Below are positions 904 through 42,579 of a stretch of 42,579 nt of DNA, in pieces. The DNA is from Prorocentrum cordatum. Its lineage: Eukaryota. The stretch's first letter is position 1; every line of letters starts with the position of its first letter. Below the pieces are notes generated by a model. The model was not told the DNA's origin. It was given only the letters and a program-made list of their open reading frames with translations, and did not search any database. The position numbers and the translations under genes were made by a program. Location of the stretch: positions 620,001-662,579 of the forward strand of contig CAUYUJ010000292.1 of the NCBI GenBank assembly GCA_963575745.1. Direction: 5' to 3'.

Positions 904-1764
904 CTCGGAATGCGGTTACATGTTCCTCCTGCTCCTGGTGCTCTTCCTCCGACTCCTCCGCATCCCCCCTCCTTCGCCTGCTCCTTTCCCCCCCACACAC
1001 ACACCTCTTCCCCCCCCCCATCCTCCTCCTGGAGCCCCTGTCCGTTCTTCTAGCTCCTCGCTCCGCGGGTCCTGCTGCGCGCTTCCAACTCATCCTCCCA
1101 TGCCCCGCGCTCCTCCTGCTCTCGTGCCCTCCGTCTCCTCCTCGTCCCGCTTGTCCTCCTATGGCAAGTGGGTTGTTCGTCCGCCTTCTCCTCCTCTTCT
1201 CGCTGCTGCGGCTACTGCTCGTCCACACACCTCAAGCACACTACCTCAGTGGAGACAAAGAACATACAAGCATAAAGAAGTGCACGTATATTAGAACCCA
1301 ATATGCAACATCCAAACGATCCTGATTCGACACGCCTGCTCCTCCTTCTCTTACTCCTCCTCGTCCTCCTCCTCCTCCTTCTCCTGCTTGCCTCCTCTAT
1401 TTGTTCTCCTCCCCGTCCATATCCTCCCTTCCACCTTGGTCTATTCCTGCTCCTCCCTCCTTCCTGCCTCAGTTTGCTCCTCTTCTCCCAGGCCGTCCTC
1501 GTCCCTCACTCGCTTCCTTTCTGCTCCTCCTCATCTCCTCCCTCTCTCTCAGGGGAAACAATGAGGAACCGATGATGCTACTTCGCTGACGTCTTCCAAG
1601 GTGCGTTCTGACTAGAATTTCGAGGAAAATCTAGCCGTGGGGACGAGGACCTCCCAGACAGGCAGAAATGAGGGGAGGGGAGAGGAGCGGTATCAGGACT
1701 ATTTCCTCCTCTGACTCTCCTCCTTTTCAACCTCCCTCCCTCCCTCGTTCCCCCCTGCCCCCAC

Positions 1765-1870
1765 CCTCCTCCTCCTCCTCCTCCTCCTCCTCCTCCTCCT
1801 CCTCCTCGTCCTGCTCGTCCTGCTCGTCCTCCTCCTCCTCCTCCTCCTCCTCCTCCTCCTCCTCCTCCTC
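1765..1870. repeat. (CCT)n tract
   Basis: Read directly from the sequence. Confidence 0.95.
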
Positions 1871-1923
1871 CCTCTCCCACCCCTCCTCCTCCCCCGAACG
1901 CCCAGGACGACGCGCAATGCTGC

Positions 1924-1994
1924 CTCGAAGTGCTCCCGGAGCTCCGCTGCGGTGGCGTTCTGCGGCAGCCCCCCCACGAAGAGCTTGTTCGTGC
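1924..1994 (-). CDS. RRM protein exon (RRM2 start: (G)TNKLFVGGLPQNATAAELREHFE)
   Basis: Contains the RNP2 motif LFVGGL. Acceptor CCCAG|GC (phase 1), donor GAG|GC. Both phases match the neighbouring exons. Confidence 0.93.
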
Positions 1995-2167
1995 CTGGGA
2001 AAAGCCCACTTCGGGAGGGAGTCAGGGGTCTCGTAAACAATGAAAGAAGTCCACTCGGATTTCCCGGACCGGCATTCCCCAAAAAGCTCCAAGAGCATCC
2101 CCAAGACAACCCCCAGAGGGTCAAACAATTGCTCCTTTCAGCTCAACAAAAAGTTGTCGAATGTTTT

Positions 2168-2168
<1 letters not shown>

Positions 2169-2198
<30 letters not shown>

Positions 2199-2224
2199 TG
2201 TCGTTGTCGTTGTCGTTGTCATTG

Positions 2225-2256
<32 letters not shown>

Positions 2257-2277
2257 GTCGTCGTCGTCGTCGTCGTC
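2169..2277. repeat. (GTC)n/(GTT) tract
   Basis: Read directly from the sequence. Confidence 0.95.
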
Positions 2278-2617
2278 CCCCTTCAGGGTCGGTGGCGCCG
2301 GCCGGAAGGCCTTCGCCATACAGGAGGTCCGCGCGGATTTCCTGCATCTGCTCTGGAACTCCCTGGCCTAGGCGTCGCTTGATGGGGGGAGATAAACGGG
2401 AGGGGATGAAGAATGTGCATGTTTTGGGCCCTAGAGGACACCTTTCGGATTCTCAACGGCTCCTCTAGGGGCCCTAAACTAGGACATAAACTTTTGGCGC
2501 TTCGCGCGGATTTCTTGGATCTGCGCTGGACCGGCGCCGCCAGGGAGCCCCAGCGCGGACCCAACAGATCCGCGCGGAGCACCACAAATGTAGGTTTATG
2601 GCGCTCTCCCTTCTTCA

Positions 2618-2788
2618 TCGGCGGTGGACAAACCTTCCCTTAGTAGACCTCCCCTTAGCGAAAACGGCCTGGGACCGAAACCGACGGACCTGGACCCGCA
2701 AACATGACGGCCGCGACGCCCTCTCGCGAAGCGAAAACGGCCGATTTCTTAATCGACGTGTCAGGGTAGGAGGTCTGTCCACCCGCGA
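2618..2788. mobile_element. 171-bp MITE family A, copy 1
   Basis: TIR TCGGCGGTGGACAAACCT / AGGTCTGTCCACCCGCGA. There are three equal-length copies in the window. Confidence 0.85.
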
Positions 2789-3047
2789 TAAACGGCCCCT
2801 TCTCTGAAGCCCTCGCTGCCCCCGATTCATCGCCCCCCTGCGACGCGGTGCCCAACTGGCGGCGCCTTTGGCGCCGCCAGGGCGTCAGCGCCGTCGGCCC
2901 CGACCACAGGGTGGGCTCTTCGTCCCAGATCGTCCGTCGACGGTCCTTGGGCCCGAGACTGACCTCCACGGGCAGGAGGAAGCGACAGGACAATACTGTT
3001 GCCGGTTCCGGTGTGCCGTTTCTGCTGCCAATTCTGGCGCCGTTTTG

Positions 3048-3067
3048 GTTGTTGTTGTTGTTGTTGC

Positions 3068-3110
<43 letters not shown>

Positions 3111-3111
3111 G
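3048..3111. repeat. (TTG)n tract
   Basis: Read directly from the sequence. Confidence 0.95.
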
Positions 3112-3532
3112 CCGGTTCCATCGCTGTTTTTTGTTGCCAATCCCGGTTCCAATTTCAACTACGGAGCCGTCACCAGTTGCCGTTTTTCTTCGCCGCTTCC
3201 TTCTGCAAGGGACGCTTTTCCAAACGGCCCTACCGTTCCGGGGCCCACTCGGGGCAGCCGGCCGTGGAGGAAAAACAAAAAAAAAAAAAACTGCGGAGCC
3301 GGGCAGTTTTGGAGGTCGGCGCGGGTGCTCCCCGGCTCGGTGGCGGACCCCCTCGGGCGGCGCCTTCGACGCCGCCCTTGGCGCGCTCCGCGCGCACACG
3401 TGAGGGGGGAGGGGTCCAGTACGCCAGGCCTCCTACTTACCGTCGCTCGGACGTCCATTTCCCGTGCATTTGTCGCTTTCGTGCGTGTTTTTGTTCGCTC
3501 GATGGTCTTCGCCGAAGGAAACACGCCTAATT

Positions 3533-8929: not shown

Positions 8930-10658
8930 GCGGGCCCCTCAGATCCGCCCTGGAAAACGCGTGCCTCTCCTGCGGTGCAGTAGCTGTCTGAACAGCCGAA
9001 GCACATTGTCCAGCTCCGTCCGATGCACCCTGGCATAGGCTTGCCAGACCTCATCTGTGTAGTCTCAGACGGTCGTTAAAAAAGCACCCGCCTCGTAGCT
9101 CCTTTGGTCCATCATCAAGATTGAACTTTGCGGACTGCACCTGTTGATACCACTCTGGCGCAAATCCTGACGGCCACCTCGACCTTGCGCTTACCGCACC
9201 ATTCCATTCCAATTTCGTGATCCTCGACTGCTTCTTCTCTGAGGTCCCAGAGATATATGGTGCTCCAGGTTGACAAGTCCTGTAGAAATTAGCGCCTGAC
9301 TCTGGTTGGGTCAGGCGGGGCTGCAGGCAGTGACCCTAGTGGTGGCCTGTCCATGTCAGAAGGCTCACCCCTACTCGAGTCCTCCAGCACGCTTTGTAAA
9401 AGAGTGGGCCTACGGTCCTTGCGTGCAACCGCAACCCTGGCTGCTGCGATGATCTTCACATATCTTCACGACCCATGCCCCGTCTGGATCAAGATGTGGA
9501 TCGTCCTTGGATCCTGCTTCAACCTGTTCTGCTGGGGGCCCAGCTGGTGTATTGGAGCAGGCTTAGCAGTAGAACGAGCACTGCCGCTGCCGCTGCCTTC
9601 CACAACACCCAGGGAGGATGCCGCTTATTCTGGTCATTCATGTTTGCGGGGGCGCTTTGCTGCCAATCGTTGCCGCACCTCCACTACTTACTGCCGTATA
9701 ACCTGGATGTTACCCGCCGTGGGGCCGATGACGTCGACGATGCTTTGTTGCACTTCCTTCCCAATCTGCACTCTGAGCTTGTCCTACTTTTTCGGTTATG
9801 AGTCTTCCACTTCCAGGCCTGAGAAGTCCACGATGTCGCCAGCAATGTTCTCGACTGCTTCACTGCTATTACGTATCTCCGAGCAGCTGCGACAGGTTGA
9901 TACTCTTGGTGCCTTTGGGCGAGGAGTCTCCCGAGCTTCCTTGCACTCAGCCAACCACTGCGCTGCCTCACCCTCCTGCGCGACATAGCTTTCGAGGTGT
10001 GGGTGCGCCCTGCGGCGCGCAATAGCCTTGGCCGAGTTGACGGTCTCCAGCAACTGTTTTTGCGGCTGCGGGGCGAGGATCTGAACGACAAGGTTCTCCA
10101 GGGCCTTGAGTTCAGTCGCCCCCTGGTCACCCAACCTCCCCCTGAGCTGCTCCGACACGTCCGACATGGGAATGGTTGATGCATTCTGCGCTGGAGCCGC
10201 ACTGGGGGGTGGAGTGGATATCTTGGGTGGAGTGCCCCACCCTGGTACATCACTGCATTGCCTGTTCCCTGCCCGGCGTCTGGGTCGATCTGCCACCGCC
10301 TGCACCTTATCCTTGATTGAGCCCAGACACCTCGGGTTGGCGCATTTATCCAAGGCGTCTCCTGTGGCACCAGGGTTGCATTGCAGCGGCCCTCGTTTTC
10401 CGATTCTACATGTACCTGCACGCTGAGCAAGTGAGAAAATCTTTAGCATTCTTGCCCATGGGCTCCGACAGGCGCTCACACAGCGACGAGAGCGCTCTCA
10501 GCACAGGAATTTACGCTAGCAGAGCCTCCGAGCAGGGCGCAAATGTGAGCATCATGTGAAACAGGCCTCAGAGATTTCTGGCAGGGGCGCGCCTCACCCC
10601 TTACCAGACCCAAATCGCTGAGCCTCATTGCTCAGGACTTGAGCAAAAATGGCTACGG
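8930..10658 (-). mobile_element. Decayed SL-capped retroposed insert, LINE ORF1-like pseudogene; 3' end approximate
   Basis: SL, then about 180 nt, then ATG at 10459: MGKNAKDFLTCSACRYM*NRKTRAAAMQPWCHR (CxxC). A frameshift leads into a Pro-rich then helical/coiled-coil frame ending ...VRQRLAAKRPRK, with several stops. The sequence is complex and less GC-rich than its flanks. Confidence 0.6.
10638..10658 (-). other. Genomic relic of the dinoflagellate spliced leader (DinoSL)
   Basis: The minus strand reads CCGTAGCCATTTTTGCTCAAG versus DinoSL CCGTAGCCATTTTGGCTCAAG (20/21 identical). Confidence 0.93.
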
Positions 10659-17879: not shown

Positions 17880-18290
17880 GAGGCCAGTCTTCAAGAAACC
17901 TTCCACAAGAAACCCAGCCCTGAGACCCCAGGACGCCCATCGATTTTTGGCGCAGGAACGTCTCACGCTTTCCATGTCAACACCATCGAAACCCAAGAAA
18001 CCCAGGGCGCCCTGGAGGCAAGCAGGTTGTTTCTTGGCATGGGCCCCCGACTGTAGTCCAGCCGCCCTCTGGGGCGCCGGTGGCTGCGGTGCCGGCTCCT
18101 GACCAATAGGTCCTGCCGTGCAGGAGTGGTGCTCCCAAACCCAACTGGAGGTCTGGACCCCTCAGGGCCCCCCAGGATTCCCCAGGATTCCCCAGGAGGA
18201 GGAGGAGGAGGAGGAGGAGGAGGACGAGGAGGAGGAGGAGGAGGAGGAGGAGGAGGAGGAGGAGAGGGGCGAGGAGGAGGAGGAGGAGGA
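17880..18290 (+). repeat. Dispersed repeat family D, copy 1 (ends in a GGA tract)
   Basis: Highly similar to the reverse complement of 20405-20775. Confidence 0.88.
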
Positions 18291-20404: not shown

Positions 20405-20775
20405 CCTCGTCCTCCTCCTCCTCCTCCTCCTCCTCTTCCTCCTCCTCCTCCTCCTCCTCCTCCTCCTGCTGCTGGGGAATCCTGGGAGGCCCTGAGGGGT
20501 CCAGGCCCCCAATCGGGTTTGGCAGCACCACCCCTGCACGGCAAGACCTGTTGGTCAGGAGCCGGCACCGCAGCCACCGGCGCCCCAGAATGCGGATGGA
20601 CTACAGTCGGGGGCCCATGCCAAGAAACACCCTGCTTGCCTCCAGGGCGCCCTGGGTTGCTTGGGTTTCGATAGCTTTGCAGTGGGAAGCGCGACGTTCC
20701 CACACAAAAAATTCATGGACGTCCTGGGGTCTCAGGGTTGGGTTTCTTGTGGAAGGTTTCTTGTGGACTGGCCTC
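20405..20775 (-). repeat. Dispersed repeat family D, copy 2 (inverted)
   Basis: Inverted partner of 17880-18290. Confidence 0.88.
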
Positions 20776-21498: not shown

Positions 21499-21669
21499 TC
21501 GGCGGTGGACAAATCTCCCTGTAGTAGACCTCCCCTTAGTGAAAACGGCCTGGGGCCGAAACTGACGGACCTGGACCCGCAAAAGTGACGGCCGCGACGC
21601 CCTCTCGCGAACCGAAAACGGCCAATTCCTGAATCGACGCGTCAAGGTAGGAGGTCTGTCCACCCCCGA
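21499..21669. mobile_element. 171-bp MITE family A, copy 2
   Basis: Colinear with 2618-2788. Confidence 0.85.
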
Positions 21670-21742
21670 CAAAAGTTCATGCTCATGGCGTTTCTTCTTC
21701 TGCGACGTATCTCAATTGAGCAGGGACCGACCGTCCCAGCAT

Positions 21743-24688: not shown

Positions 24689-24859
24689 TCGGCGGTGGAC
24701 AAACCTCCCTTTAGTAGACCTCCCCTTAGAGAAAACGGCCTGGGACCGAAACCGACGGACCTGGACCCGCAAACATGACGGCCGCGGCGCCCTCTCGCGA
24801 ACCGAAAACGGCCCATTCCTGAATCGACGCGTCAGGGTAGGAGGTCTGTCCACCTCCGA
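24689..24859. mobile_element. 171-bp MITE family A, copy 3
   Basis: Colinear with 2618-2788. Confidence 0.85.
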
Positions 24860-24867
24860 TAGAGGCC

Positions 24868-28683: not shown

Positions 28684-31600
28684 TTTTTTGCAATGCACGG
28701 CAGCCAGGCGCACACCCAAATCGCGAAAGCAAAAAGGCCGGGCGACAGGCTGGCAGTCAAAACACGCGGGCTAAACACCCGCCGAGGGCCACTCGCAGAC
28801 CCCAGGCCTGGGAGGGAGGCCCTTGCGCAGCCGCAGCAGGGCAGTAAGCTGCGCCTTGGTCAGCGCGAAAGGTCCGTGCCTCGCCGCCTCGCACTCCTCC
28901 AGAAGTCGCGAGGGCCTGGAGTCAGCGTAGCGCCCGCAGAGGCTGCAAAAAGTGATGGCACCCTTGCGCCACAAAAAGTGAGAGGCATGCGGCACATGTC
29001 CAGCAATGCCCGTGCCAGGAGGCAAGCGAGAGGGGGGATCAGGCATCCCCAGAGAACGAAAGAGCTGCTCGTCGATGGGCGGCAGCCCCGAGTACGAGCG
29101 CGGCAGCCTGACGCAGACCCGAAGCGCGGGAGCTGCGTCCGCTTCTGGCTCGACCGCAGGCTCGAGAGGCACCTCACCGTCCCCCCCCCCGTCCTCGTCC
29201 GCCCCGTCCCCCTCCCTCTGATGGCCTCGCTGCTGCAGCTCCACGCGGCAGGGAGGCGGGCTAGGCGGCGGCCGCAAGGCCGAGCACGAGGAGCGCAGCA
29301 GGTGGAGGGCGCGGCTCTGAGAACGCCTGACCGATCGGCCACAGCTCTTGCAGCACCAGCCGAACGCGGTCGAGGCAAAGGCATGCTGGGAACGAGCCGC
29401 AAAGCCCGAAAGCAGCTCCTCCCTCCTCTGAGCCCTAGAAACCTTGGGTTTGGTAACCTCACGGCCAGGGCTCTTGGGGGCGGAGGCGGCGGCAGCACAG
29501 AGAGTGGCATTGCGGAGCAGGATGGCCTCGGCCTGCTCCACCAGGTCCAAAGCGCGGCGGGCAACGTCTGGATCAAGCTGAACCTCCTCAGCCCGCTCCT
29601 CGGCGAGCCCATCGGCCACCGCATTGAGAAAAATAGCCTCGGGCAGCACAGAGTGGCCGAGGCGAGCAAACTTAGCTGGGTCCTCGGCAAGATGCGAGGG
29701 CACGTGCAGGAGCGCGAAGCGGCCCTCGCGGGCGTCAAGCAGCGAGAAGAGATCGTGCCAGAGGTCCGCGTGCTCGAGCTTGTAGCAGTGGCGGCGTCCG
29801 CGCGCTATCGCATTCACGTGATTCACGTGGTCGGAATAAAGCTTGACATCGGCAGCAGGGTGGACGGCCCTGACGCACTCCACAATGGCCAGGAGCTCAG
29901 CGCGAGGCACAGTTTGCACAGGACCGTCCACCAAGCCCGTGCAGCCAGAGTCCCAGTCCAAGCCTTGGCCGTCGTCAAGGCGAGCGAAGCTCCACCCCAC
30001 ACGGCGTAGCAAGGGCTGAGACGACCAGGCTCCACCTGCACCGTCGGTAGCGTAGATCCCCCCTGGCAGCGCCCCGACGCCGCAGCGCAGCCAACGATGG
30101 CCACGCTCGTCAGGGGGCGGCGGGAGGTTCAGCCAGGCGAGGGGCACAAGCCCGCGGCACCAGAAAACAGGGAAGCGGTCGATCTCCTCCAACGCCTGAC
30201 TGCGAAGGTGGTTGGAGGAGACCACAGCCTCAGGAGGGGGAGGCACACCGACCGAGAGCGCCCAGTCCCTCTCCATGGAATTGCACATGCATTCCCAGAA
30301 ACGATGACGGCTGGATTCACGGGAGCGGTGGCAGCGCTGGCACAGGTCGTCCGTGCGGTAGCCAGCCTGGAAACGTCGCTCCTCCGTCCAGTAGCCACCG
30401 CATGCAACTAGGCGAACAAGGCTGGCAAGACTGTGCTGGGACTCCTTCTCCAGCCGCTCCGCCAGTGCAGGCGCGTGCTGCCACCAGACGCCCTCCTCCG
30501 CCCCACCCCCGTCAAGATGCTTGGCCGCCTGGCGCCAAACCGCGTTCTCAGCGGTCTGCTCCAGAGCCGCGAGGAGGCTGGTGACGGGGGCGACGGTGGT
30601 GGCGAAAAGCTCCCACTCCTGCCCGTCTGGCTCAACCAACTTGGACAGGGACGGGCACTGCCAGCCAGCAGAAAGGACAGAGGCCTGAAAGGCCGAAAGC
30701 GGGCCGCGCACGAAGTTCCAGCCACGCGCCACACGCTCCAGGGACGCGTCCCATCCTCGCTGGACCTTGGCAGCGAGGCCGTCCTCTCCAAGGACTCGAG
30801 AGTAGAACGCACCTACGATGTGCCGCAGGTACCAGATGGGCGGGTCGCGCCGCGCCCCAAAACTGATGCGAATGGCCACAGTAGCGCACGTGCCGCGCTG
30901 AGGACACTTGCTGGCCAGCCGCGCCTGACCACGAAGCTGCTTCAGCATGGTCGGCGCCAGCCCGTGCACCTCAGGCGCCCACACCGACTTCGGCAGGGCA
31001 TTGGAGACGAAAAGGCGTGAGGCTCGCGGCGCGGACCTGACCAGTCCCGAAATCTTGAGAGCGGCGCGCCTGCCCTTCATGAAACGCTTCTTGCGCACCT
31101 TCACGGAGCGCGAGGCACCGAAAGATGTGTCGTGGCCGAGGTCGCGGGCAACACGAACAGTCCTGAGGCCACCAGCCCCGACCTCGGCCGCCGACGCCCA
31201 CGCGGGCAGCAAGGCGCGGATGGCAGCAGAAGAGGCCATGAGGCCGCACTTTCCCAGGGAAAACTCGCATCGCAGCCTGCGCAGGCCCGTAAAGAGGGCG
31301 CGCAGCACCACTGGAAAGGCCAAGCTGAGCGAGTGCTCAGTGCCGAAAAGGCGGAAGGCGAGATCGTCGATCCACTCCCTCAGGCGCAACCCTGGCACCA
31401 AGGAGTGGGCCGCCTTCAGCGGGGCGTGCAGGTAGGCGCGCGCCTGCGAGACAGCTTGGCCACAGCCGGCGAGGATGCCTCCACCAGGCAAGATACCTGT
31501 GTGCACCTGGCGCTGGAGGGTGAGGAGGCGAGGACCGAGGTAGACGTCGAGGGCGAGAGCGAGGAGGCGGAGAGGGTAGCCTAGATCCTGGGCCGCCGCC

Positions 31601-32798
31601 GCCAAATCAGGCAGGGACACCAGGTCGTAAAACTTCCGAAGGTCGAGCAGTCCGCCCGCAACCTCGAAGCCTCCCAGGAGCGCAAGCTCCCCCTCCAGCT
31701 CGTCCAACCACCCCGCAAGATCGGCCGAGCCGCCCACTGTCTTGTCCCAGGCCCCGTGCTGGTCACGGTCCCAGGCGCCTATCACTGGCTTCCTAATGCG
31801 GCATAGCAACACGTAGCTGAAATTGAGCAAGGCGATGGGCCTCAGGCCTCCATCCTCCTTGTCCAGCAAGGCGATGAGGTTGAACAGCTCTTGAAAGGGC
31901 ACTGTGGCCTCGCGCTCGATGGCCGTCAGAAGGGCCGCGAGCGCATCGATGGCAGCAGGCGGCGCATCCTTGACCAGGCGAGGCGGCATCATGTCAATCC
32001 CCCTCCCCCGACGATCAGGAACGGTCTTTAACGCCCCCCTCACCTGGTCAGGAGAAACAGGCTCGAAGCAGGCTGACGACAGAGCAGCACGGCGGATCCT
32101 CGCGAGGGCCTCCAACGCCTCGGGCCGCGAATGCTTGCACCAGATTGCGTGCCACGAGGCGCCTTCCGCCTCCAGCACGGCAGAGGGCGTGGAGGCAGGC
32201 TCTCCATCCCAGACAGGCTCGGCGCGACAGATTGAGGGAGAATCGCGGAGGAGCCTATGGGCTTTGCTAGCAGAGCCCGCCAAAGCGTCGGACAACCAGG
32301 AGCGCCAGCGCGCACGGGCCGCCGCAGCCGCGCGCTGGGCAGCCTGGACTCCCTGCTCCTTAGCCTCCTCCGCGATTTGCTGAAGGCTGTCGAGCGACAG
32401 CGAGCGAAGCTGGCGGAGCCAAGAGATCCAACGCTCAAGGATCGCTTTCTCCACCGCGTCGTTCGGATCGAAAGGCGGGGGCAGCTGCAGGGCCTCCAGC
32501 CCGCGCATCGTGCTCCAGAACTGCTCACCACAGCGGGCGCGCGGAGTAGAAGGCTCGGAAGGATCCGCCTCGGGATCAGCCAAACGCAGAAGCAAGGAGG
32601 CCTGCACAGCGAGGGCCTGCCAAAAACGGGCATGGCGGTCAGCGAGAGGAGGGCCGTCGCTGGCGCGTGGCACGATGGGGGCGTACTTGAGGCGAGGCTG
32701 CTGGCACCGTCCTACGTACAGAGGCCACTGCGAGCGAGGGATTCCTTTTTTGGCACAGTGCACGAACTCCAGAGCCAGGGCCCACTCCCCGAGCTGGC
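28684..32798 (-). mobile_element. 5'-truncated non-LTR retrotransposon with RT and RNase H
   Basis: Uninterrupted frame of about 1340 aa, short 3' UTR, A6 tail at 28684-28689, and (GGA)n on both sides. No endonuclease is present in the retained part. Confidence 0.93.
28771..32798 (-). CDS. ORF2 fragment: reverse transcriptase, Zn finger, RNase H, C-terminal Cys/His motifs
   Basis: RT motifs GRGID, K.DGGLRPIAL, LDLRKFYD, GILAGC and WIDD (31363-31374). Zn finger CQRCHRSRESSRHRFWEC. RNase H motifs TDGAG, QTVPRAEL, YSD, ADLW, HVPSH and NAVADGLA. Confidence 0.92.
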
Positions 32799-33207
32799 AA
32801 GGAGGGGGATGAGGGGGAGGAGGAGGAGGAGGAGGAGGAGGAGGAGGAGGAGGAGGAGGAGGAGGAGGAGGAGGAGGAGGGAGGAGGAGGAGGAGGGAGG
32901 AAGAGGAGGAGGAGGATGAAGGAGGAGAGGAGGAGAAGGAGGAGAAGGAGGAGGAGGAGGAGGAGGAGGAGGACGAGGGAGGAGGAGGAGGAGGAGAGGA
33001 GGAGGAGGAGGAGGAGGAGGAGGAGGAGAAGGAGAAAGAGGAGGAGGAGGAGCAGGAGGAGGAGGAGGAAGGAGGGGGAGGAGGAGGAGGAGTAGGAGTA
33101 GGAGTAGGAGGAGGAGAACTCCTGCTGACATCCGCTCCTGACCGTATGCTCATGCCGATGTCCCCCACGGCAACGACGACGACGAAGACGACGACGAGGA
33201 CGAGGAC

Positions 33208-33247
<40 letters not shown>
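32799..33247. repeat. (GGA)n then (GAC)n tracts on the 5' side of the retrotransposon
   Basis: Read directly from the sequence. Confidence 0.95.
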
Positions 33248-34063
33248 CTTTCTCTCATTCTGACGGGGAGGGGTCGCCCCCCCTGCCTGTCTTGAGGTGA
33301 GTGTGCGGCGAACCGATATCATTCTAGGCAGCTCACGGGAGCCTCCCATGTCATCCTGCTGGCTCCTGCGAACCGACGCTGGCCGGAGCCAATCGACGCC
33401 AAGTCGGCGCTGCATCGGCGCTTTATCCCATCGATCACCTAGGCGCTGGCACGCGCCAGGGCACTCTGCAGGCGGACGTCGGAGGACACGTGCTGCTCCC
33501 ATTGGGTCACTGCAGAATGCTCCGATGGTCGCCCCGGTAGGGGAGCTCGGAGTCGAATCGATCTGCGCGGTCGGCCGTCGAAGCAAATCGGGATCGGCGG
33601 AAGTCGGCAGCGGAGTCGCGAGAAGTCGAACCGGCGGACTCTGGCAGGCGAATAGGCCTCCACAGAAAAATCGGAATCCAAATCGGAAGCCGAAGCCGCA
33701 GCCGAATCGGAATCGGAATCCATCGAAATCGAATCGAATCGATTCGGAGGAATCGGAATGAGCCCTGCTTGGCGGCGTGCACAGTGGGGCAGGGGGAGTT
33801 TGGGGAAGGCTGTTGCATGGAAGGCGCCAGCCGCCTTACATCTATAGGCAGGGCCAGCACCTTCTCAGAAGCGCGGTAAGGACGCAAGAGCCTTGGACGC
33901 CCATGCCGAGGCTCTTCGAGCGGGGCTGGCCATCGAAAGTGGCTGAGGACGGACCGAGGATGACCGAATAGGCAAGGGTGCAAGGTGTACCCTGGGGGAG
34001 GCGATCATCCTCACTGTCGGGGTTGACAGTGACCCCTCTGCGCGTGGCTGAGATGAGAGCTGC

Positions 34064-36822: not shown

Positions 36823-37648
36823 CTGAAGGAGCCCGTGGGGGCCTATAAAGCCTTGGGCCCCTCGTCGGCCCTAGACCGTCTCAGACCTCCTAACTAGAGC
36901 AAAACAAGAGGGCGATACACTAGGCTCAACCCTCCCAATCTGCGTTCAAACATGTAGGTACATGCTTAGTGGACGCTAAGGGCACAATCTGCAAACAATT
37001 ATGCGCATCGCGTGCTCACTGTGCCGTGCTAGGTACGACGTACATGTGTGAGACAATGAACGTTATGCTACACCACCGTGCAATGTGGCCGCGCTCACAT
37101 GTCCCAGAGAGCAGGAATCTTAGCCGAAGTAGTCCAGGCTGGGCGGGGATGAGACCGTCCTGGACGGGGCGGGTGGTACAGCTCGATCCTGACGGACAAA
37201 GCTAATTCCACCCCGAACGCATAAGCGTAGGCTGAATCAGAACACTGACGTCAATCGAGACCTCAGAAGGCAGCGCGGCTGCCGCGCCTCAGATCCCGAG
37301 ACTGCACCATCACTCCAAGAAGTCCAGCAACCAGGCAGCTCAAGGCAGGAGTGATCCCGTGGAGCTCGGAAGTGCCAGAGGTGAGCGATGGTACGGTGCG
37401 CTCTGAGGCAAGTTATGGCCAAAGCCAGGTTGGTATGTACACGTATATCCACTGATATCAATAGTATATTGGTGAGTGGTTGGTGTAGGTGAGGGCATGC
37501 ACAGGGCGCATCACCCAGCCGCCTTCACAGAGGCCGAAGCGACTGGACATACTGGATAATACTAGATAGTATTCCATCCAATCAAAGACATTCAAAGACA
37601 TTGAATTGATGCAAGCTCGGATCCACAGATATTGCAAACCCGTTCGTT

Positions 37649-38569
37649 TCAGCATATCTTTTGCTCGTTGACTGCCTGCCTTGGCTTGCTTCCGTAAGCC
37701 AGCCGCGTCCACATCTGCGTATCTCGCATCTGGCGCGCGCGGAGCTGGCTCTGAAGTGCGAGCTCGAGTGTGCTCGGCGGTGCTGACCCCTGGATGGTCG
37801 TGCCACCCGTGTGGGCGATGGCCTGATGCACTGCCTGGCGAAACTGCTGCGCTGTGATCGGCGGTAGTTTGAGCGGCTCCTTGGGCCCCTCGCTGTGCTG
37901 CCCCCTGGCGCGGTTGACTGCGGCGATGACCGATTCGTCCATGAACGGGCTGGCTGCGAGGGAGTTGTACATGATATGTAGCTCGTACGTTTTCGGCTGG
38001 CCCATGGGCGTGCACGCGGCCTTGAGACGGAAGTATGGGACAAGGTCCCCCACGTGCAGGCGTGACATCTTGGTCACCAAAATAGCGAAAGCCTCGAGGA
38101 TCTCTTTCGATGGGCTCGGCAAATCCAGTCGTACCAGTCCTCCTAAGAAGGCGACCACGATATGTATGTGACGGCTGCCCAGATCCTTCTCGCCTGCCTT
38201 TACCTTCTCTGCGTAGGCTGTCCCCATCTCCGCGCCCTGGTCCGTCGCCTCGTTCTCTGGAATCAAGTAGAAGTCCCAGACCGAGCCCGCCAGGTGCCTC
38301 GACATCTGCATCGTGTTGAGGGCGGCCCTCTGTAGCGTCGTCACTTCCTCGGACTCTGCAGGCATTCCCAATCCATGCCCAGCATTCGCACGCCGCTGCT
38401 GGAGCCCACCTTGCGGTGCTGGGCCTTGTCGTGGTCGCTGTGCTGCTGGTGCGGCTGCGGCGCCTGCTGCTTCGAAGGTCTGAGATCGCGGGCGCGTCAC
38501 CGCCGAGGCCGGCGACGTCCATTCCGCTGTCCCCAACATCCTGTGTCTCTGGGCCAGGGACGTGCTCAC
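37649..38569 (-). CDS. Intact uncharacterised ORF (about 300 aa) directly 3' of LINE ORF2; start codon uncertain
   Basis: Protein-like complex sequence (TTLQRAALNTMQMSRHLAG..., LGSRHIH, VPYFRLK, GSAPPSTLELALQ) with no stops, on the same strand as the LINE. Confidence 0.72.
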   Translation of the reverse strand: MSTSLAQRHRMLGTAEWTSPASAVTRPRSQTFEAAGAAAAPAAQRPRQGPAPQGGLQQRRANAGHGLGMPAESEEVTTLQRAALNTMQMSRHLAGSVWDFYLIPENEATDQGAEMGTAYAEKVKAGEKDLGSRHIHIVVAFLGGLVRLDLPSPSKEILEAFAILVTKMSRLHVGDLVPYFRLKAACTPMGQPKTYELHIMYNSLAASPFMDESVIAAVNRARGQHSEGPKEPLKLPPITAQQFRQAVHQAIAHTGGTTIQGSAPPSTLELALQSQLRARQMRDTQMWTRLAYGSKPRQAVNEQKIC

Positions 38570-41500
38570 GCACGTGAAGCAAGTGTGAGTGTAAATCTTG
38601 GTGGACGATACTGCAGCGCCCGCGCGTATAAGGAGGATCAGGCTCGGGCCAGAGATCGGAAGATACGGAGCGGGTTGGGCATTGTCTCGGCATCTGTGCG
38701 GCCATCGCCCAGGCGCGTCTCAGGCATGAGGCCTTGCTCGCAAACGTCGTCATACACCGTGGGCACGTGTTCGTGCAGATGGCGAGCGAGTATTCGTTCC
38801 GAAGTTGGTGAGCGAAAGTACCATGTGCATTTAGGGCCTTCATTGTAGGGCACGTAGCTCCGCAGGCCGTGCCATCGTGCAACTCGTGCATGCACAAGTG
38901 CTCTCCCTCGCCCTCTCCCTTTCGTCGTGCATGACGTGCCCTCGTGCTTGTCGCTCGTCGTCGCGTGATCGCTCTAGCCAGGTGCGGGGAATAGGCTTGT
39001 CCATCTTGAATTTCTTGAATACTGATGCTGCTTCTGTGTCTTTAAATAGCTCCGTGATATTTTGGGTGTCGTGCCAACCACTTGTACAATCAAAGTCTGG
39101 CATGAATCCGTATACCTGGACATGTATGTCGCTGTAGTGCTGGACTGCTTTAGCTAATGCGTTGAGATCGCTCAACCATTGCATAGCCCACGGGGAGCTG
39201 TGTTCGCATACTTTGCCAGTGCTGTCGAGGCGGCGGTGCTTGACGCATTCATCCAAGCGAGTGGTCCCGAATGCCCCCATGAGGACCTGCTCGTGATTGC
39301 CCGGGTCCCTGACTATTGTATGAATCCAACGTAACCGCTGCAACTGGAGCTCGACGGCTGCTGGCGATATTTCCCAGAACTGTAGGGCGCCACGGGGCGG
39401 CATTGTGCGCGTGCGACCATCGTCCAACTTTAGGGCTGCCTTCCCTTTCATCAGACCACGAAGCATTTTTACAATCACGCTGTCCAATCGATCAGCGAAG
39501 TCCTCGGGCAGTACAAAAGCTGGCAGGCCAGAAATCGCAGCAGAGTTAAACAAAGGAAGAGCATGCGCTTCAGCCTGCGCGGGAGTGGCTGGTGCCATGC
39601 ATGCCCGAGAGATCGCCGCCCCGCGCGTGCTGCCTTGATGCGATTGTCCAGCGTGGTGCGCAACGCACCGTCGAAAGGCAATATGGGACCTAAGAGCCTC
39701 GCCTCTCTGTCGACAGTGCCTTGAACGAGCGCGGGGGCGCTGACTGCTTGACGCAAGCGAACGAGCCGTGCCCCATGATGTTCACGATGTGTGTGCTGCT
39801 TTTGCTTATTGAGATGATGTCATGTTTGCAGTACTTGCTCTTGCAATAGGTCAGTTGCATGATTGGGCTGTGCTGCGATATGCGGTGCCACAGGTTTGTG
39901 CGGGTGTATGTGCATGCGCGATACGTCGTCGATAAACGTGCCTACGCCGATGTCGGTGATCCCCCCCGTGATAATACTACGGCATGTGAGCAACTGATAG
40001 CTGAAGTCCCCCTGCCTAAGTTTATCGCACCATGTCTCTATCCCAGGAGTGAATACGTCCACGCAATCCGCAGCGCCACAGCAACCGCAGCGGCAGGGAG
40101 CGCCCCATGGCGGCCCCCTCTCAGCCCTAACCCCCCAAACCCCCCCCCCCCCGCCCCCCCCCCCCCCCCCCCCCCCCCGCACACCCACACCGCCACCACC
40201 ACCACCACCCCCCGTCAATGCTGTTCACGTGCACCGTGGCGTTCTCAAATGGCGGCTCTGGGAAAGGTCTGCTGCTCTGGCGCTACCGTGCTCTCGTGCA
40301 AGGTGCGCAGGCGATCCCTCTCTGTACATGCGAAAGCATTCGCGCCATCGGAGTTCGTGATTGTGCGCGATACTCGTGCACCCCTACATCCCCAGGCCGC
40401 TGAAAAATAAGCTAGCACGCACCCTTCACGACGGCGTCCCCTGAGTCCCCCATGTGCTATGTCACGTGGTACTGGTCGCTTCGTGCGCGCGAGTAACTGC
40501 CCGTAGAAGCTCATGCCGAACGCGTCGTGACAGCGCAGTATCCGTAGCCCTTTGGTGCCGTGCGCTCCGTTGCACCTGGGCTGGAAGAATGAATTCGACC
40601 ATGCGGACGAGGGCGAGGAGGTCATTGTATCTGCGCGAGAACGCGCGAGGGAGATACAAATGCGTGTCGGCCCCATTTGAATACATCTGTCTAGCAATTG
40701 CCATCAATAACGCTTCAGAACCCCCCCCCCAAAAAAAAAGCAGGGCAAACTCGGCGCTTGGGCGCCTGTCATACATATTTGATCTGGCCCATGCGGTCCA
40801 GCTGCGCCTGTTCTATGGCTAGTCCAGGAGATGCCAGCTTCGGTAACATTTGAAAATATGCTGCCATCTCGGTCCAATCAACTGGCTTGGCTCCGAATCC
40901 TCCCTCATCTGCCTTATGTGCGAAACCTTGTGTGGCCTCGTCGACGGTCATGTTGTGTTTTATGCCGAATGCGAAACGCTTTGTTGGTCCCCGTCCAGTG
41001 CCAGAGAGTGATGTCTTCAGTCGGTGTACCAGTGCCCAATCGCGACGCTTCCAAACTCGTTCGAATTGTTATGTTGTGTCTGCGCGTCGCTCAAGAGTAT
41101 GCCGGCGTCGTGCCGCTTGAAGTTCTCGTGTAATCGCACATAGGTTCTTGCACACCTCGTCGTATTTGGAAAAGGTGTAAATCGTTCTGGTCAAATGCTT
41201 TGCTGCCATCTCGCCCCAGCTGCTCCCGTAGTACTGCGCGCTGCTTGGTGAGGCCAATCCTTTCTTTCCTCATGTGTTCGTACTGCTCTGATGGGTGCTC
41301 GCCAGGCGGAAAGACATGTTGTAGACTTGTCTGAGTGTCCTCAATAAATCCCAGCCAGCCTGCACGTCCCCACGGCCCCACACATCTCTCCAAGTTTCCT
41401 CTGGGATCTCCCCCGTATTCTTCTCGAGCTCCTTCAGACAGTCGATCCGCAAGTGGCCGTGCACGTAGGCGCCCATGATGGAGCCTCGGTTAACCACAGG

Positions 41501-42347
41501 ATGGTGTGAGCCCTTGTGGGCTATCTTTTTGTGTATATCCAGCTCGAGGAGTAGAGGTATATGGTCCTGGGGCAATGTCGTGGCTCTGCGCTGTAGTCGC
41601 CGTCCCAGCTGTCGTAACGTCTTCAGAGATTTTATGCGATCCAGGGGCGCGGTCGGGACAATGTAATGGTCAATCTTGCTGCTGGCGATGCCATTGAAGT
41701 AGGTTGGCCCTGTGTCCCAAAAGCTAATGGCCAATGACATATGATGTTCCTCCATGGCGTCCCGTACCCGCTGTGCTACTGGATTTTCCATGCCAGGGTT
41801 CTTCAGTCCTACGAGCTGATCAGCCCGATAATACTTTCGTCCTGTGGCGTCCCGCCGTATGCCAAATGAGCAGTTGAGGTCGCCCACCATAATGAGAAGA
41901 CACTGGTGACCAAGTTTGTCGACGGTCTCTGTGAACCAGGTCATGCATTTGTCCACTGCCTCCTTCAGAATAGATGGCGTGGTACCTTTGGGCGGCAGGT
42001 AAACAGGGAAGAAAACGACCGTACTAGCACCGATGCGGAACTTTGCCATGGCGGTGCGCCCAGCGATGCCTCTAGAACGAGGCGGGAACTGAGTCTGCTG
42101 GAGGGTTCCTTTCAGCTCCGAGTTGAAAAATAGTGCTAGTCCACATGAACGATTTGCCCATCTTGAGTTTCAAGAGCCAAATTGAATGCACGTGTGGTTC
42201 GGCAAGTTTGTCTTCAGCACATTTTCGTCCTTCAAGGCGGCACGCCCTGTGCCGTTTAGCATCAGCACGTCGACCGTCGGCGTGAATCTCCTCCAGTCTA
42301 GTGTGATCTGCCGATTCCACATTATGAGCGAATGCGCGTAGTACCAT
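38560..42347 (-). pseudogene. Decayed LINE ORF2 (APE endonuclease, RT, C-terminal Cys/His region) with multiple frameshifts
   Basis: APE motifs MVLRAFAHNV, VYLPP, VGDLN, GPTY, SKIDHY and DHIP. RT motifs RRREG, DGANAF and FIDD. C-terminal CPRCMTTF..K and H..HV..H. A poly-C/ACC tract at about 40130-40213 interrupts the RT. Confidence 0.88.
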
Positions 42348-42505
42348 GAGGAGACGGATTCCTGCGGGTGGAGGTAAGAAAGGGTAGGAACAGCAGGCCA
42401 GCCTAGTCCTACCGCCCCGCCTGATGTCAACCTCCGCCCGTGAGATGTACGGTGTGGCAGGTGTGGTAGGAGCTCCTGCTGTGCTGAAAGCCACAGCAGT
42501 TCCTA

Positions 42506-42579
42506 GGGGGAGGAGGAGGAGGAGGAGGAGGAGGAGGAGGAGGAGGAGGAGGAGGAGGAGGAGGAGGAGGAGGAGGAGG
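42506..42579. repeat. (GGA)n tract running off the window end
   Basis: Read directly from the sequence. Confidence 0.97.

What the first reader, a model, noticed from the sequence alone, without database searches (positions are those of the whole stretch)
37649..38900. LINE with an intact extra ORF downstream of ORF2
Seen: directly after the Cys/His-rich C-terminus of a heavily frameshifted APE-RT ORF2, and overlapping its frame, lies a stop-free, intronless about 300-aa ORF on the same strand with helical, globular character (LGSRHIH, FRLK, GSAPPSTLELALQ). Established: canonical LINEs place accessory ORFs 5' of ORF2, and a 3' ORF is atypical. Inference: either an undescribed LINE lineage with a 3' accessory gene (possibly replacing ORF1 and expressed by SL trans-splicing of a bicistronic RNA) or a domesticated cargo gene that outlasted its element. 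No ORF1 is evident in the about 160 nt between the ORF2 start and the flanking GGA tract.
Basis: partly seen in the sequence, partly recalled or inferred. Interest (0 to 1): 0.8.

Follow-up and report, generated by a model that had tools for sequence, protein, structure and literature searches.

The report
Dinoflagellate LINE with third gene
The open reading frame is a real, conserved protein gene of unknown fold that sits just behind the reverse-transcriptase gene of a family of dinoflagellate jumping elements, and the copy in this window is a decaying one.

Summary
On the minus strand, 37649-38719 is stop-free for 356 codons (296 aa from the ATG at 38539). It lies directly 3' of the Cys/His fingers of a decayed APE-RT element and overlaps that frame.

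It is not a chance ORF. A family profile built without the window scores it E 5e-65. AlphaFold gives pLDDT 95 for the core. Forty-two cluster representatives match; the labelled ones are dinoflagellate gene models or transcripts. No Pfam, PDB or fold match was found.

Linkage to the LINE is conserved in 3 of 3 cases where upstream context is visible: the window, metagenome contig L001, and Prorocentrum cordatum models P0005/P0044. In the window and in L001 the ORF is +1 relative to the zinc-finger frame. It starts 8-12 codons after the last finger. Eighteen of 21 relatives with an N-terminus start at a Met near a conserved Trp.

Best reading (0.6): a separate ORF3 of an undescribed LINE lineage, with this copy dead. 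P123R and R260L hit near-invariant sites. The main rival (0.25) is a C-terminal ORF2 domain or frameshift fusion. Function is unknown; I infer an ORF1p-like RNP role.

The parts
37649..38539 (-). ORF3, 296 aa plus stop. It has a basic, disordered N-terminus of about 57 aa, a long helix, an alpha/beta core (residues 88-256) and a long C-terminal helix. The last 25 aa or so are not shared with relatives.
   Evidence: ORF listing. Family profile built without the window, E 5.4e-65. AlphaFold pLDDT 82.9 for the whole protein and 95.1 for the core. 18 of 36 listed paralog variants are synonymous in this frame.
38540..38719 (-). Upstream open extension of the ORF3 frame, from the TGA at 38720-38722 to the ATG. 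It overlaps the end of ORF2 (fingers 2-3).
   Evidence: Three-frame print. P0044 residues 272-303 align here in the ORF3 frame.
38562..38903 (-). Cys/His finger block at the end of ORF2 (three C2H2-like units), in the frame that is -1 relative to ORF3. This frame has no stop until 37458.
   Evidence: P0044 residues 234-279 align with 51% identity. L001 residues 242-309 align with E 1e-4. HVREH in the window versus HVRTH in L001. Zero stops over 296 codons against a shuffle mean of 4.26.
38843..39781 (-). Conserved C-terminal region of ORF2, downstream of RT. It is in the same frame as ORF3 and out of frame with the fingers in this copy.
   Evidence: 41% identity to P0005, E 3e-47. 31% identity to the L001 ORF at 1301-2450, E 2.7e-14.
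39823..41270 (-). Reverse-transcriptase remnants spread over three frames, with a FIDD motif near 39900-39954 and a poly-G low-complexity tract near 40130-40224.
   Evidence: Frame map. L001 RT residues 160-256 align to 40308-40598, E 1e-7 in a relaxed tblastn; the FADD/FIDD alignment is weak. The L001 ORF matches RVT_1, E 2.5e-5.
41273..42340 (-). APE-like endonuclease region, with an in-frame stop at 42170-42172.
   Evidence: PF03372 E 0.081, 13.1 bits, below the cut-off of 24.5. Exonuclease III chains E 0.48. Frame map.
37450..37714 (-). AT-richer 3' flank that other copies do not share. Paralogous contigs part from the window at 37715-37717.
   Evidence: Summed depth is 3.2 here against up to 59 in the ORF3 core. 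There are loose ends at 37715 and 37717.
42505..42579 (-). TCC (GGA on the + strand) microsatellite about 165 nt upstream of the APE start. The window ends inside it.
   Evidence: Translation is poly-L/poly-P.

Best explanation
The ORF is the third gene (ORF3) of a previously undescribed lineage of dinoflagellate LINE elements.

Shown:
- The order APE - RT - conserved C-terminal region - three C2H2-like fingers - ORF3 is conserved between lineages that share only about 28-40% protein identity.
- ORF3 lies in the +1 frame relative to the fingers and begins 8-12 codons after the last finger histidine.
- Most relatives begin with their own Met next to a conserved Trp-Arg motif.
- The protein folds confidently into a helical hairpin around an alpha/beta core with no detectable known relative.
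- Paralogs diverge mainly by changes that are synonymous in the ORF3 frame.

Inferred:
- ORF3 is translated on its own, from a separate 1-2 kb mRNA made from the 3' part of the element. In dinoflagellates, SL trans-splicing or an internal start would do this.
- Its product, with a basic disordered tail, long paired helices and a small alpha/beta core, acts as a nucleic-acid-binding or RNP-assembly partner of ORF2p. That is the job ORF1p does in other LINEs.

The copy in this window is dead. ORF2 is shattered, and ORF3 is still open but carries damaging substitutions and a foreign 3' end.
For: A real, conserved protein:
- 42 representatives at E<=1e-3, 15 at <=1e-10 and 2 at <=1e-30, one of the two being the window's own product.
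- A 72%-identical homolog, P0002.
- A profile built without the window gives E 5.4e-65.
- pLDDT is 95.1 and pTM 0.89 for the core.

Linkage:
- L001 carries an RT ORF (RVT_1 E 2.5e-5), one continuous ORF from the C-terminal region through three fingers (1301-3154), and ORF3 at 2313-3224 (profile E 5.1e-33).
- Its C-terminal region and fingers match the window (E 2.7e-14 and 1e-4).
- P0044 maps colinearly to 39544-39002, 38903-38763 and 38593-37739.

Same +1 offset: in L001, (2352-1301) mod 3 = 1. In the window the fingers are in script frame 1 and ORF3 in script frame 2.

Own start codon. Of the 21 representatives that have the N-terminal region:
- 13 start with Met and have the Trp motif within 22 residues; in 7 of these the Met is 1-4 residues before the Trp.
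- 3 start at a second conserved Met.
- 2 start with Met without the Trp.
- 1 is partial.
- 2 run on upstream.

Coding signal in the ORF3 frame only:
- GC by codon position is 0.65/0.50/0.73 in the window and 0.74/0.53/0.82 in L001.
- 18 of 36 listed paralog variants are synonymous, against 0.239 expected (binomial P 6e-4). The ORF2 frame gives 10 of 36 and the third frame 8 of 36.

Transcribed:
- One relative comes from a Polykrikos kofoidii Trinity transcriptome.
- Five come from another EukProt transcriptome.
- Complete ORFs sit on contigs of 0.9-2.8 kb.

This copy is dead:
- 3 of 17 highly conserved columns deviate. P123R is against 28 of 29 with Pro, and R260L against 25 of 27 with Arg.
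- P0002 keeps both consensus residues.
- The variants at 38171/38172 restore Pro in most other contigs.
Against: - P0005 and P0044 (P. cordatum) read from the ORF2 C-terminal region through finger 1 into ORF3 in one frame with no stop. P0007 also has 40 residues upstream of its Met.
- In the window the ORF2 C-terminal piece and ORF3 share a frame, and only the finger block is out of frame.
- In neither the window nor L001 does the ORF2 frame stop near the ORF3 start. It stays open for 295 codons in the window and 236 in L001. A simple stop-then-restart arrangement would not look like this.
- Genomic context is unknown for the other 35 or so relatives. They could be free-standing genes.
- No function is shown: no Pfam, NCBIfam, PDB-sequence or fold match was found.
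- The variant test uses only the 36 best-supported sites that fall in the ORF, out of a listing that left 87 more sites unshown.
Confidence: 0.6

Rival explanations
1. The '300-aa ORF' is not a separate gene. It is the C-terminal domain of ORF2, either in frame in intact copies or joined to it by a programmed +1 ribosomal frameshift just after the last zinc finger. On this reading its separate look here comes from frame changes.
For: - P0005/P0044 are continuous from the ORF2 C-terminal region into the domain.
- The window's ORF2 C-terminal piece and the ORF share a frame.
- The ORF2 frame has no stop near the junction in the window or in L001. That fits a fusion made by frameshifting.
- In the ORF3 frame a finger-like string (YTHTCFTCVSTSLAQRH) precedes the Met in the window and resembles P0044.
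Against: - The L001 ORF2 is continuous through three fingers, and the domain is +1 to it. The window shows the same +1 offset. Two independent same-sign frameshift mutations within the same 20-130 nt are unlikely; I estimate about 1e-3 from the observed densities of frame breaks.
- 18 of 21 relatives start with Met at or near the Trp motif. A pure fusion does not need this.
- P0005/P0044 are gene models on 30-330 kb genome contigs. Relative to the window and L001 they lack about 65 residues (fingers 2-3) exactly at the junction. The transcript-derived P0045 departs from P0044 exactly at that point. A predicted intron would look like this.
- No slippery site could be sought with only two DNA sequences.
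Confidence: 0.25
2. The ORF belongs to a cellular (or domesticated) dinoflagellate gene family. Its position next to a dead LINE is capture, retroposition or coincidence, and the LINE-linked copies are a side branch.
For: - Many relatives are complete Met-to-stop ORFs of 230-290 aa on contigs of 0.9-2.8 kb with no visible RT.
- Some P. cordatum models are free-standing (P0019, P0004).
- ORF3 is intact beside a shattered ORF2.
Against: - Linkage with the same ORF2 tail holds in 3 of 3 cases where upstream context is visible.
- This copy has P123R and R260L at near-invariant sites and lacks the Met-x-Trp-Arg start.
- Many diverged paralogous contigs lie over the ORF in one DNA run.
- At about one break per kb in ORF2, an unbroken 0.9 kb has roughly a 0.4 chance without any selection (my estimate).
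Confidence: 0.1
3. It is a chance open frame in GC-rich DNA, or the ORF1 of a second element lying downstream.
For: - All three minus-strand frames have long open stretches here.
- Off-frame open runs of 225-314 codons occur in the neighbouring 1515-aa ORF.
Against: - Profile E 5.4e-65, a 72%-identical homolog and pLDDT 95.
- No APE or RT lies downstream of 37649 in the window, nor in the 367 nt after ORF3 in L001.
Confidence: 0.01

Closest known systems
LINE ORF1p (the L1-type RNA-binding chaperone; its architecture is recalled, not tested here)
   Same: An accessory protein encoded by a non-LTR element beside ORF2. It has a basic disordered end, long helices and a small alpha/beta domain. 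The inferred role is in the element's RNP.
   Different: It is encoded 3' of ORF2, not 5'. It sits in an overlapping +1 frame. No sequence or fold similarity to any ORF1p family was detected.
SymbioLINE-Dnmt of Symbiodinium (de Mendoza et al. 2018, PMC5890265; passages read)
   Same: A dinoflagellate LINE that has taken on an unusual accessory ORF. Its ORF2 has Exo_endo_phos and RVT_1, and it has no poly-A tail.
   Different: There the extra gene is a DNA methyltransferase in the ORF1 position, upstream of ORF2. The passages read mention no 3' ORF. The protein here is not a DNMT (no Pfam hit).
ORF3 genes of LTR retrotransposons and Athena Penelope-like elements (Rodriguez et al. 2017, PMC5408684; abstract and passages read)
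   Same: An extra gene captured downstream of the polymerase gene of a retroelement.
   Different: Those are LTR or Penelope-like elements. Their ORF3s are env-like, GDSL esterase or DEDDy exonuclease. This is an APE-type LINE with a protein of no known family.
DIRS-1 overlapping ORFs with a proposed +1 frameshift (figure legend in PMC5006619; one passage read)
   Same: Retroelement genes overlap in different frames. A +1 frameshift fusion is proposed there but not tested.
   Different: That is a tyrosine-recombinase element with different proteins. Here a conserved own start codon argues for separate translation.
Primate L1 ORF0 (as cited in PMC5203782; passage read)
   Same: A 'third ORF' of a LINE.
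   Different: ORF0 is a 71-aa antisense ORF in the 5' UTR and is primate-specific. It is unrelated in position, size and sequence.

Membership tests
APE-type non-LTR (LINE) retrotransposon | Apurinic-like endonuclease domain N-terminal to RT | tested here: inconclusive
   PF03372 E 0.081, 13.1 bits against a cut-off of 24.5, on 41273-42169. Exonuclease III chains E 0.48. The position and order fit, but the scores are below threshold.
APE-type non-LTR (LINE) retrotransposon | Reverse transcriptase with an F/YxDD motif | tested here: met
   The relative L001 matches RVT_1 at E 2.5e-5 (24.5 bits, under the 29.6 cut-off) and has FADD. The window 40308-40598 aligns to that RT at E 1e-7 in a relaxed search, and FIDD is present near 39900-39954. 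The window pieces alone give no Pfam hit.
APE-type non-LTR (LINE) retrotransposon | No long terminal repeats | tested here: met
   No direct repeat family flanks 37.5-42.5 kb apart from microsatellites. The test is limited because the window ends about 400 nt upstream of the APE.
APE-type non-LTR (LINE) retrotransposon | 3' tail (poly-A or simple repeat) and target-site duplication | tested here: inconclusive
   No tail was seen after ORF3 in the window or in L001. The 3' end of this copy is not shared with its paralogs.
L1-type ORF1p / other known LINE ORF1 families (esterase, PHD, RRM, CCHC) | Sequence or fold match to a known ORF1 domain | tested here: inconclusive
   No Pfam family at E<=0.1 for the ORF, and none shared by more than 2 of 30 members at E<=1. 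The best structural Z is 4.9 for the core and 7.2 (helical hairpins only) for the whole protein. Ferredoxin-like and ACT domains reach Z 4.1-4.6, which is not significant.
SymbioLINE-Dnmt | DNMT-encoding ORF1 upstream of ORF2 | not testable with these tools
   Only about 165 nt plus a microsatellite lie upstream of the APE before the window ends. No genome is held.
C2H2 zinc fingers at the ORF2 C-terminus | C-x2-4-C ... H-x3-5-H units | tested here: inconclusive
   zf-C2H2 E 0.072 in L001 and zf_ZIC E 0.0069 in P0044, both under their cut-offs. The Cys/His spacing is visible by eye.

The most novel reading that the evidence does not exclude
A LINE lineage has moved its RNP partner gene to the 3' end. 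ORF3 encodes a protein with a new fold. It overlaps a stop-free extension of the ORF2 frame, and selection keeps that extension open. The purpose would be either to let ribosomes make an ORF2-ORF3 fusion by a +1 shift, or to carry ORF2 translation to the 3' end of the RNA (cis-preference, or avoiding a long 3' UTR). Free ORF3p would come from a trans-spliced sub-genomic mRNA. That would be a new way of organising and expressing a non-LTR retrotransposon.
Probability: 0.2. Interest if true: 0.8.

Novelty: new variant of a known kind. Interest (0 to 1): 0.58.

Why it matters
LINEs are defined by ORF1 followed by ORF2. A conserved protein gene behind ORF2, in an overlapping frame and with no recognisable fold, would add a new architecture to non-LTR elements.

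Dinoflagellate genomes are huge, full of retroposed sequence, and process their RNAs by trans-splicing. A LINE that expresses a 3' gene there bears on three questions:
- how cis-preference and RNP assembly work without, or in addition to, ORF1;
- how polycistronic TE RNAs are decoded in these organisms;
- what a set of unnamed or automatically named dinoflagellate gene models really are. Two carry UniRef labels, NDUFAF7 and COMM domain-containing protein 1, for which searches found no Pfam support.

Tried and rejected
Context and relatives:
- No whole genome is held, so copy counts and RT linkage could not be tallied.
- The word-based search for longer (fused) forms found nothing, either with the single protein or with alignment A2. 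The tool itself calls this weak evidence.
- Metagenome scans: patterns from A4 found no relative. A5 found L001 and L002. L002 is a false positive that shares only the motif and gets no profile hit.
- The viral-contig scan found nothing.
- Alignments A2 and A3 were too diverse for pattern scans.

Family and fold:
- ESM Atlas: best scores 0.79 and 0.84, in the noise range. The DUF6532 lead has no Pfam support.
- PDB profile search: one hit to an Ala-rich helix of BMC-H at E 8e-4 (0.41 for the single domain). I judge it compositional.
- Fold searches gave no match at Foldseek E<=0.001 in PDB or BFVD. VIA-align gave only helical hairpins at Z<=7.2 for the whole model and Z<=4.9 (PAN3 C-terminal domain, ferredoxin-like domains) for the core. 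This does not prove that the fold is new.

Other tests:
- A tandem duplication at the ORF2/ORF3 junction was tested and rejected (local score 18 against a shuffle mean of 17.3).
- No RNA holder was listed among the sequencing runs.
- No DinoSL relic lies near the ORF; the only one is at 10638-10658.
- Earlier-findings look-ups returned nothing.
- The neighbouring 1515-aa ORF is unrelated to this element by tblastn.

Literature: four searches returned no paper whose title or abstract, or the passages I read, describes a 3' ORF in a dinoflagellate LINE. Repbase reports and subscription journals are not in that library.
Full report
**1. What is there**

On the minus strand the frame 37649..38719 is open for 356 codons. 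The ATG that best fits the relatives is at 38539-38537, giving 296 aa. A second frame, 37458..39041 (527 aa), overlaps it completely and carries the Cys/His fingers.

Upstream lies a broken element:
- an APE-like piece at 41273-42169 (PF03372 E 0.081; exonuclease III E 0.48), with an in-frame stop at 42170-42172;
- RT remnants in three frames, with a FIDD motif and a poly-G tract;
- a conserved C-terminal region at 38843-39781;
- the finger block at 38562-38903.

A DinoSL relic with one mismatch at 10638-10658 (the motif is recalled) and the labels of the relatives place the window in a dinoflagellate.

**2. The ORF is a real gene product**

- The exhaustive search found 42 cluster representatives at E<=1e-3, 15 at <=1e-10 and 2 at <=1e-30, one of the two being the window's own product.
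- The word-based search found a 72%-identical 168-aa protein among 369 candidates.
- A profile of 29 relatives built without the window scores the ORF at E 5.4e-65 across nearly the whole profile. It scores nothing else in the window.
- AlphaFold2 with 30 sequences gives pLDDT 82.9 and pTM 0.71. Residues 1-57 are disordered and basic. The rest is a long helix, an alpha/beta core and a long C-terminal helix that packs on the first. The core alone (residues 88-256) gives pLDDT 95.1 and pTM 0.89.
- Conserved motifs are GSxWDFxL, LGxPHxH (His nearly invariant), PYFRVK and GAPPxxLERxxQ.
- None of these found a relative of known function:
  - Pfam;
  - NCBIfam;
  - PDB sequences;
  - Foldseek on PDB and BFVD;
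  - VIA-align against 48,161 chains;
  - ESM Atlas.
- The best core match is Z 4.9. Ferredoxin-like and ACT domains reach Z 4.1-4.6, which is a lead at most.

**3. It belongs to the LINE**

Three contexts are visible, and all three show the same order.

(a) The window itself.

(b) Metagenome contig L001 (3594 nt):
- An ORF at 1-1356 has FADD and matches RVT_1 at E 2.5e-5.
- An ORF at 1301-3154 is continuous from the C-terminal region through three fingers. It matches the window's C-terminal region (E 2.7e-14) and fingers (E 1e-4).
- The family ORF lies at 2313-3224 (profile E 5.1e-33).

(c) The P. cordatum gene models P0005/P0044. Their residues 17-181, 234-279 and 272-557 map in order to 39544-39002, 38903-38763 and 38593-37739.

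For the other roughly 35 relatives the context cannot be seen.

**4. Separate ORF or part of ORF2?**

For a separate ORF:
- In L001 the ORF2 tail is unbroken for 373 codons, while both other frames there hold 18 and 24 stops. The family ORF is +1 to it.
- In the window the fingers and the ORF have the same +1 relation. The ORF3 Met follows the last finger His by 8 codons in the window and by 12 in L001.
- The two elements are about 28% identical in ORF3. A shared accident is therefore unlikely, and I take the +1 arrangement as ancestral.
- Of 21 representatives with the N-terminal region, 13 begin with Met and have the Trp motif within 22 residues. In 7 of these the Met is 1-4 residues before the Trp. 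A further 3 begin at a second conserved Met, 2 begin with Met without the Trp, and 1 is partial. Only 2 run on upstream, and both are P. cordatum genome models.
- The coding signature fits the ORF3 frame only. GC3 exceeds GC1, which exceeds GC2.
- Among the paralog differences that one search lists inside the ORF, 18 of 36 are synonymous in the ORF3 frame. The ORF2 frame gives 10 of 36 and the third frame 8 of 36. The expectation is 0.24-0.27, and the binomial P is 6e-4. One search left 87 further sites unshown.

Against a separate ORF:
- P0005/P0044 read through.
- However, they are eukaryotic gene models on contigs of 330 kb and 30 kb.
- They lack fingers 2-3 exactly at the junction.
- The transcript-derived fragment P0045 differs from P0044 upstream of that very point. 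A predicted intron would produce this. I could not check it.

An oddity remains. The ORF2 frame has no stop across ORF3:
- The window has 0 stops in 296 codons, against a codon-shuffle mean of 4.26 and P 0.007.
- L001 is open for 236 of 261 codons.
- Control ORFs have 2.0-6.4 stops per 100 codons in that frame. The neighbouring 1515-aa ORF does contain off-frame open runs of 225-314 codons. Composition may therefore explain it.
- If it is real, it points to a +1 frameshift fusion or to selection for a long ORF2 frame.

**5. This copy**

- At 17 columns conserved in at least 75% of relatives, the window deviates at 3: K71R, P123R (28 of 29 have Pro) and R260L (25 of 27 have Arg). Its closest relative P0002 keeps Pro and Arg.
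- In the one DNA run that holds the stretch, most contigs over codon 123 carry the changes that give Pro (38172 C>G in 9 contigs, 38171 A>C in 7).
- Summed contig depth rises from 3.2 in the flank 37450-37673 to 47-59 over 38066-38289. This is not a copy number, but it shows many diverged paralogs.
- Other copies leave the window at 37715-37717, four codons after the family's last motif. The 25-residue tail and the AT-richer flank are therefore private to this copy.
- With ORF2 broken about once per kb, an unbroken 0.9-kb ORF3 needs no selection.

I read the copy as dead, not domesticated.

**6. Mechanism**

Shown: a conserved, folded protein under purifying selection across paralogs. It is encoded in +1 directly behind the ORF2 fingers, has its own conserved Met, and is present in transcriptome assemblies (Polykrikos kofoidii and another EukProt set).

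Inferred:
- It is translated from its own short mRNA. This is plausible in dinoflagellates, where SL trans-splicing can cap an internal cistron (established knowledge, not tested here).
- It works as an RNP partner of ORF2p, suggested only by the basic disordered N-terminus, the paired long helices and the small alpha/beta core.
- The invariant His in G-x-P-H leaves an enzymatic role open.

**7. Known or new**

- The passages I read from de Mendoza et al. 2018 (PMC5890265) describe Symbiodinium LINEs with a DNMT in ORF1 and no 3' ORF.
- ORF3s are known for LTR and Penelope-like elements (PMC5408684, abstract and passages).
- A +1 overlap is proposed for DIRS-1 (PMC5006619, one legend).
- The 'third ORF' of L1 is the antisense ORF0 (PMC5203782, passage).
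- Four full-text searches returned no paper whose title or abstract, or the passages I read, describes a dinoflagellate LINE with a 3' ORF. Repbase and subscription journals were not searchable.

I rate it a new variant of a known kind. Interest is 0.58.

Noticed in passing
28771-33318 (-): An intact 1515-aa ORF that looks like a different retroelement polymerase. It has a weak zf-RVT match (E 0.015) and an RNase H-like YATDGAGG string seen by eye. It begins in poly-Ser/Pro microsatellite-derived sequence. RVT_1 is not detected by Pfam, and it is unrelated to the 38-42 kb element by tblastn.
   Followed up: partly
10638-10658 (-): A relic of the dinoflagellate spliced leader with one mismatch (0 expected in 100 shuffles). 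This is the mark of a retroposed mRNA copy.
   Followed up: no
37458-38561 (-), the frame -1 to ORF3; also L001 2420-3154: The ORF2 frame runs on without a stop across the whole of ORF3 in both elements (295 and 236 codons). The shuffle P is 0.007 for the window. The cause may be composition or selection and is unresolved.
   Followed up: partly
17963-18185 and 20472-20694: A 223-nt inverted repeat, 90% complementary, with arms 2286 nt apart. It may be the termini of a DNA transposon or a foldback element.
   Followed up: no
2618-2790, 21499-21671, 24689-24861: Three copies of a 173-nt direct repeat, 90-94% identical, dispersed over 22 kb.
   Followed up: no
40130-40224 (-): A poly-G/GGN low-complexity tract inserted inside the RT remnants. 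GGA/TCC microsatellites also border the element at 42505-42579 and fill 34.4-36 kb.
   Followed up: no
P0019 and P0004 (relatives; P. cordatum models): UniRef labels these family members 'Protein arginine methyltransferase NDUFAF7' and 'COMM domain-containing protein 1'. No Pfam support for either name was found, so the labels look like automatic mis-annotation.
   Followed up: partly
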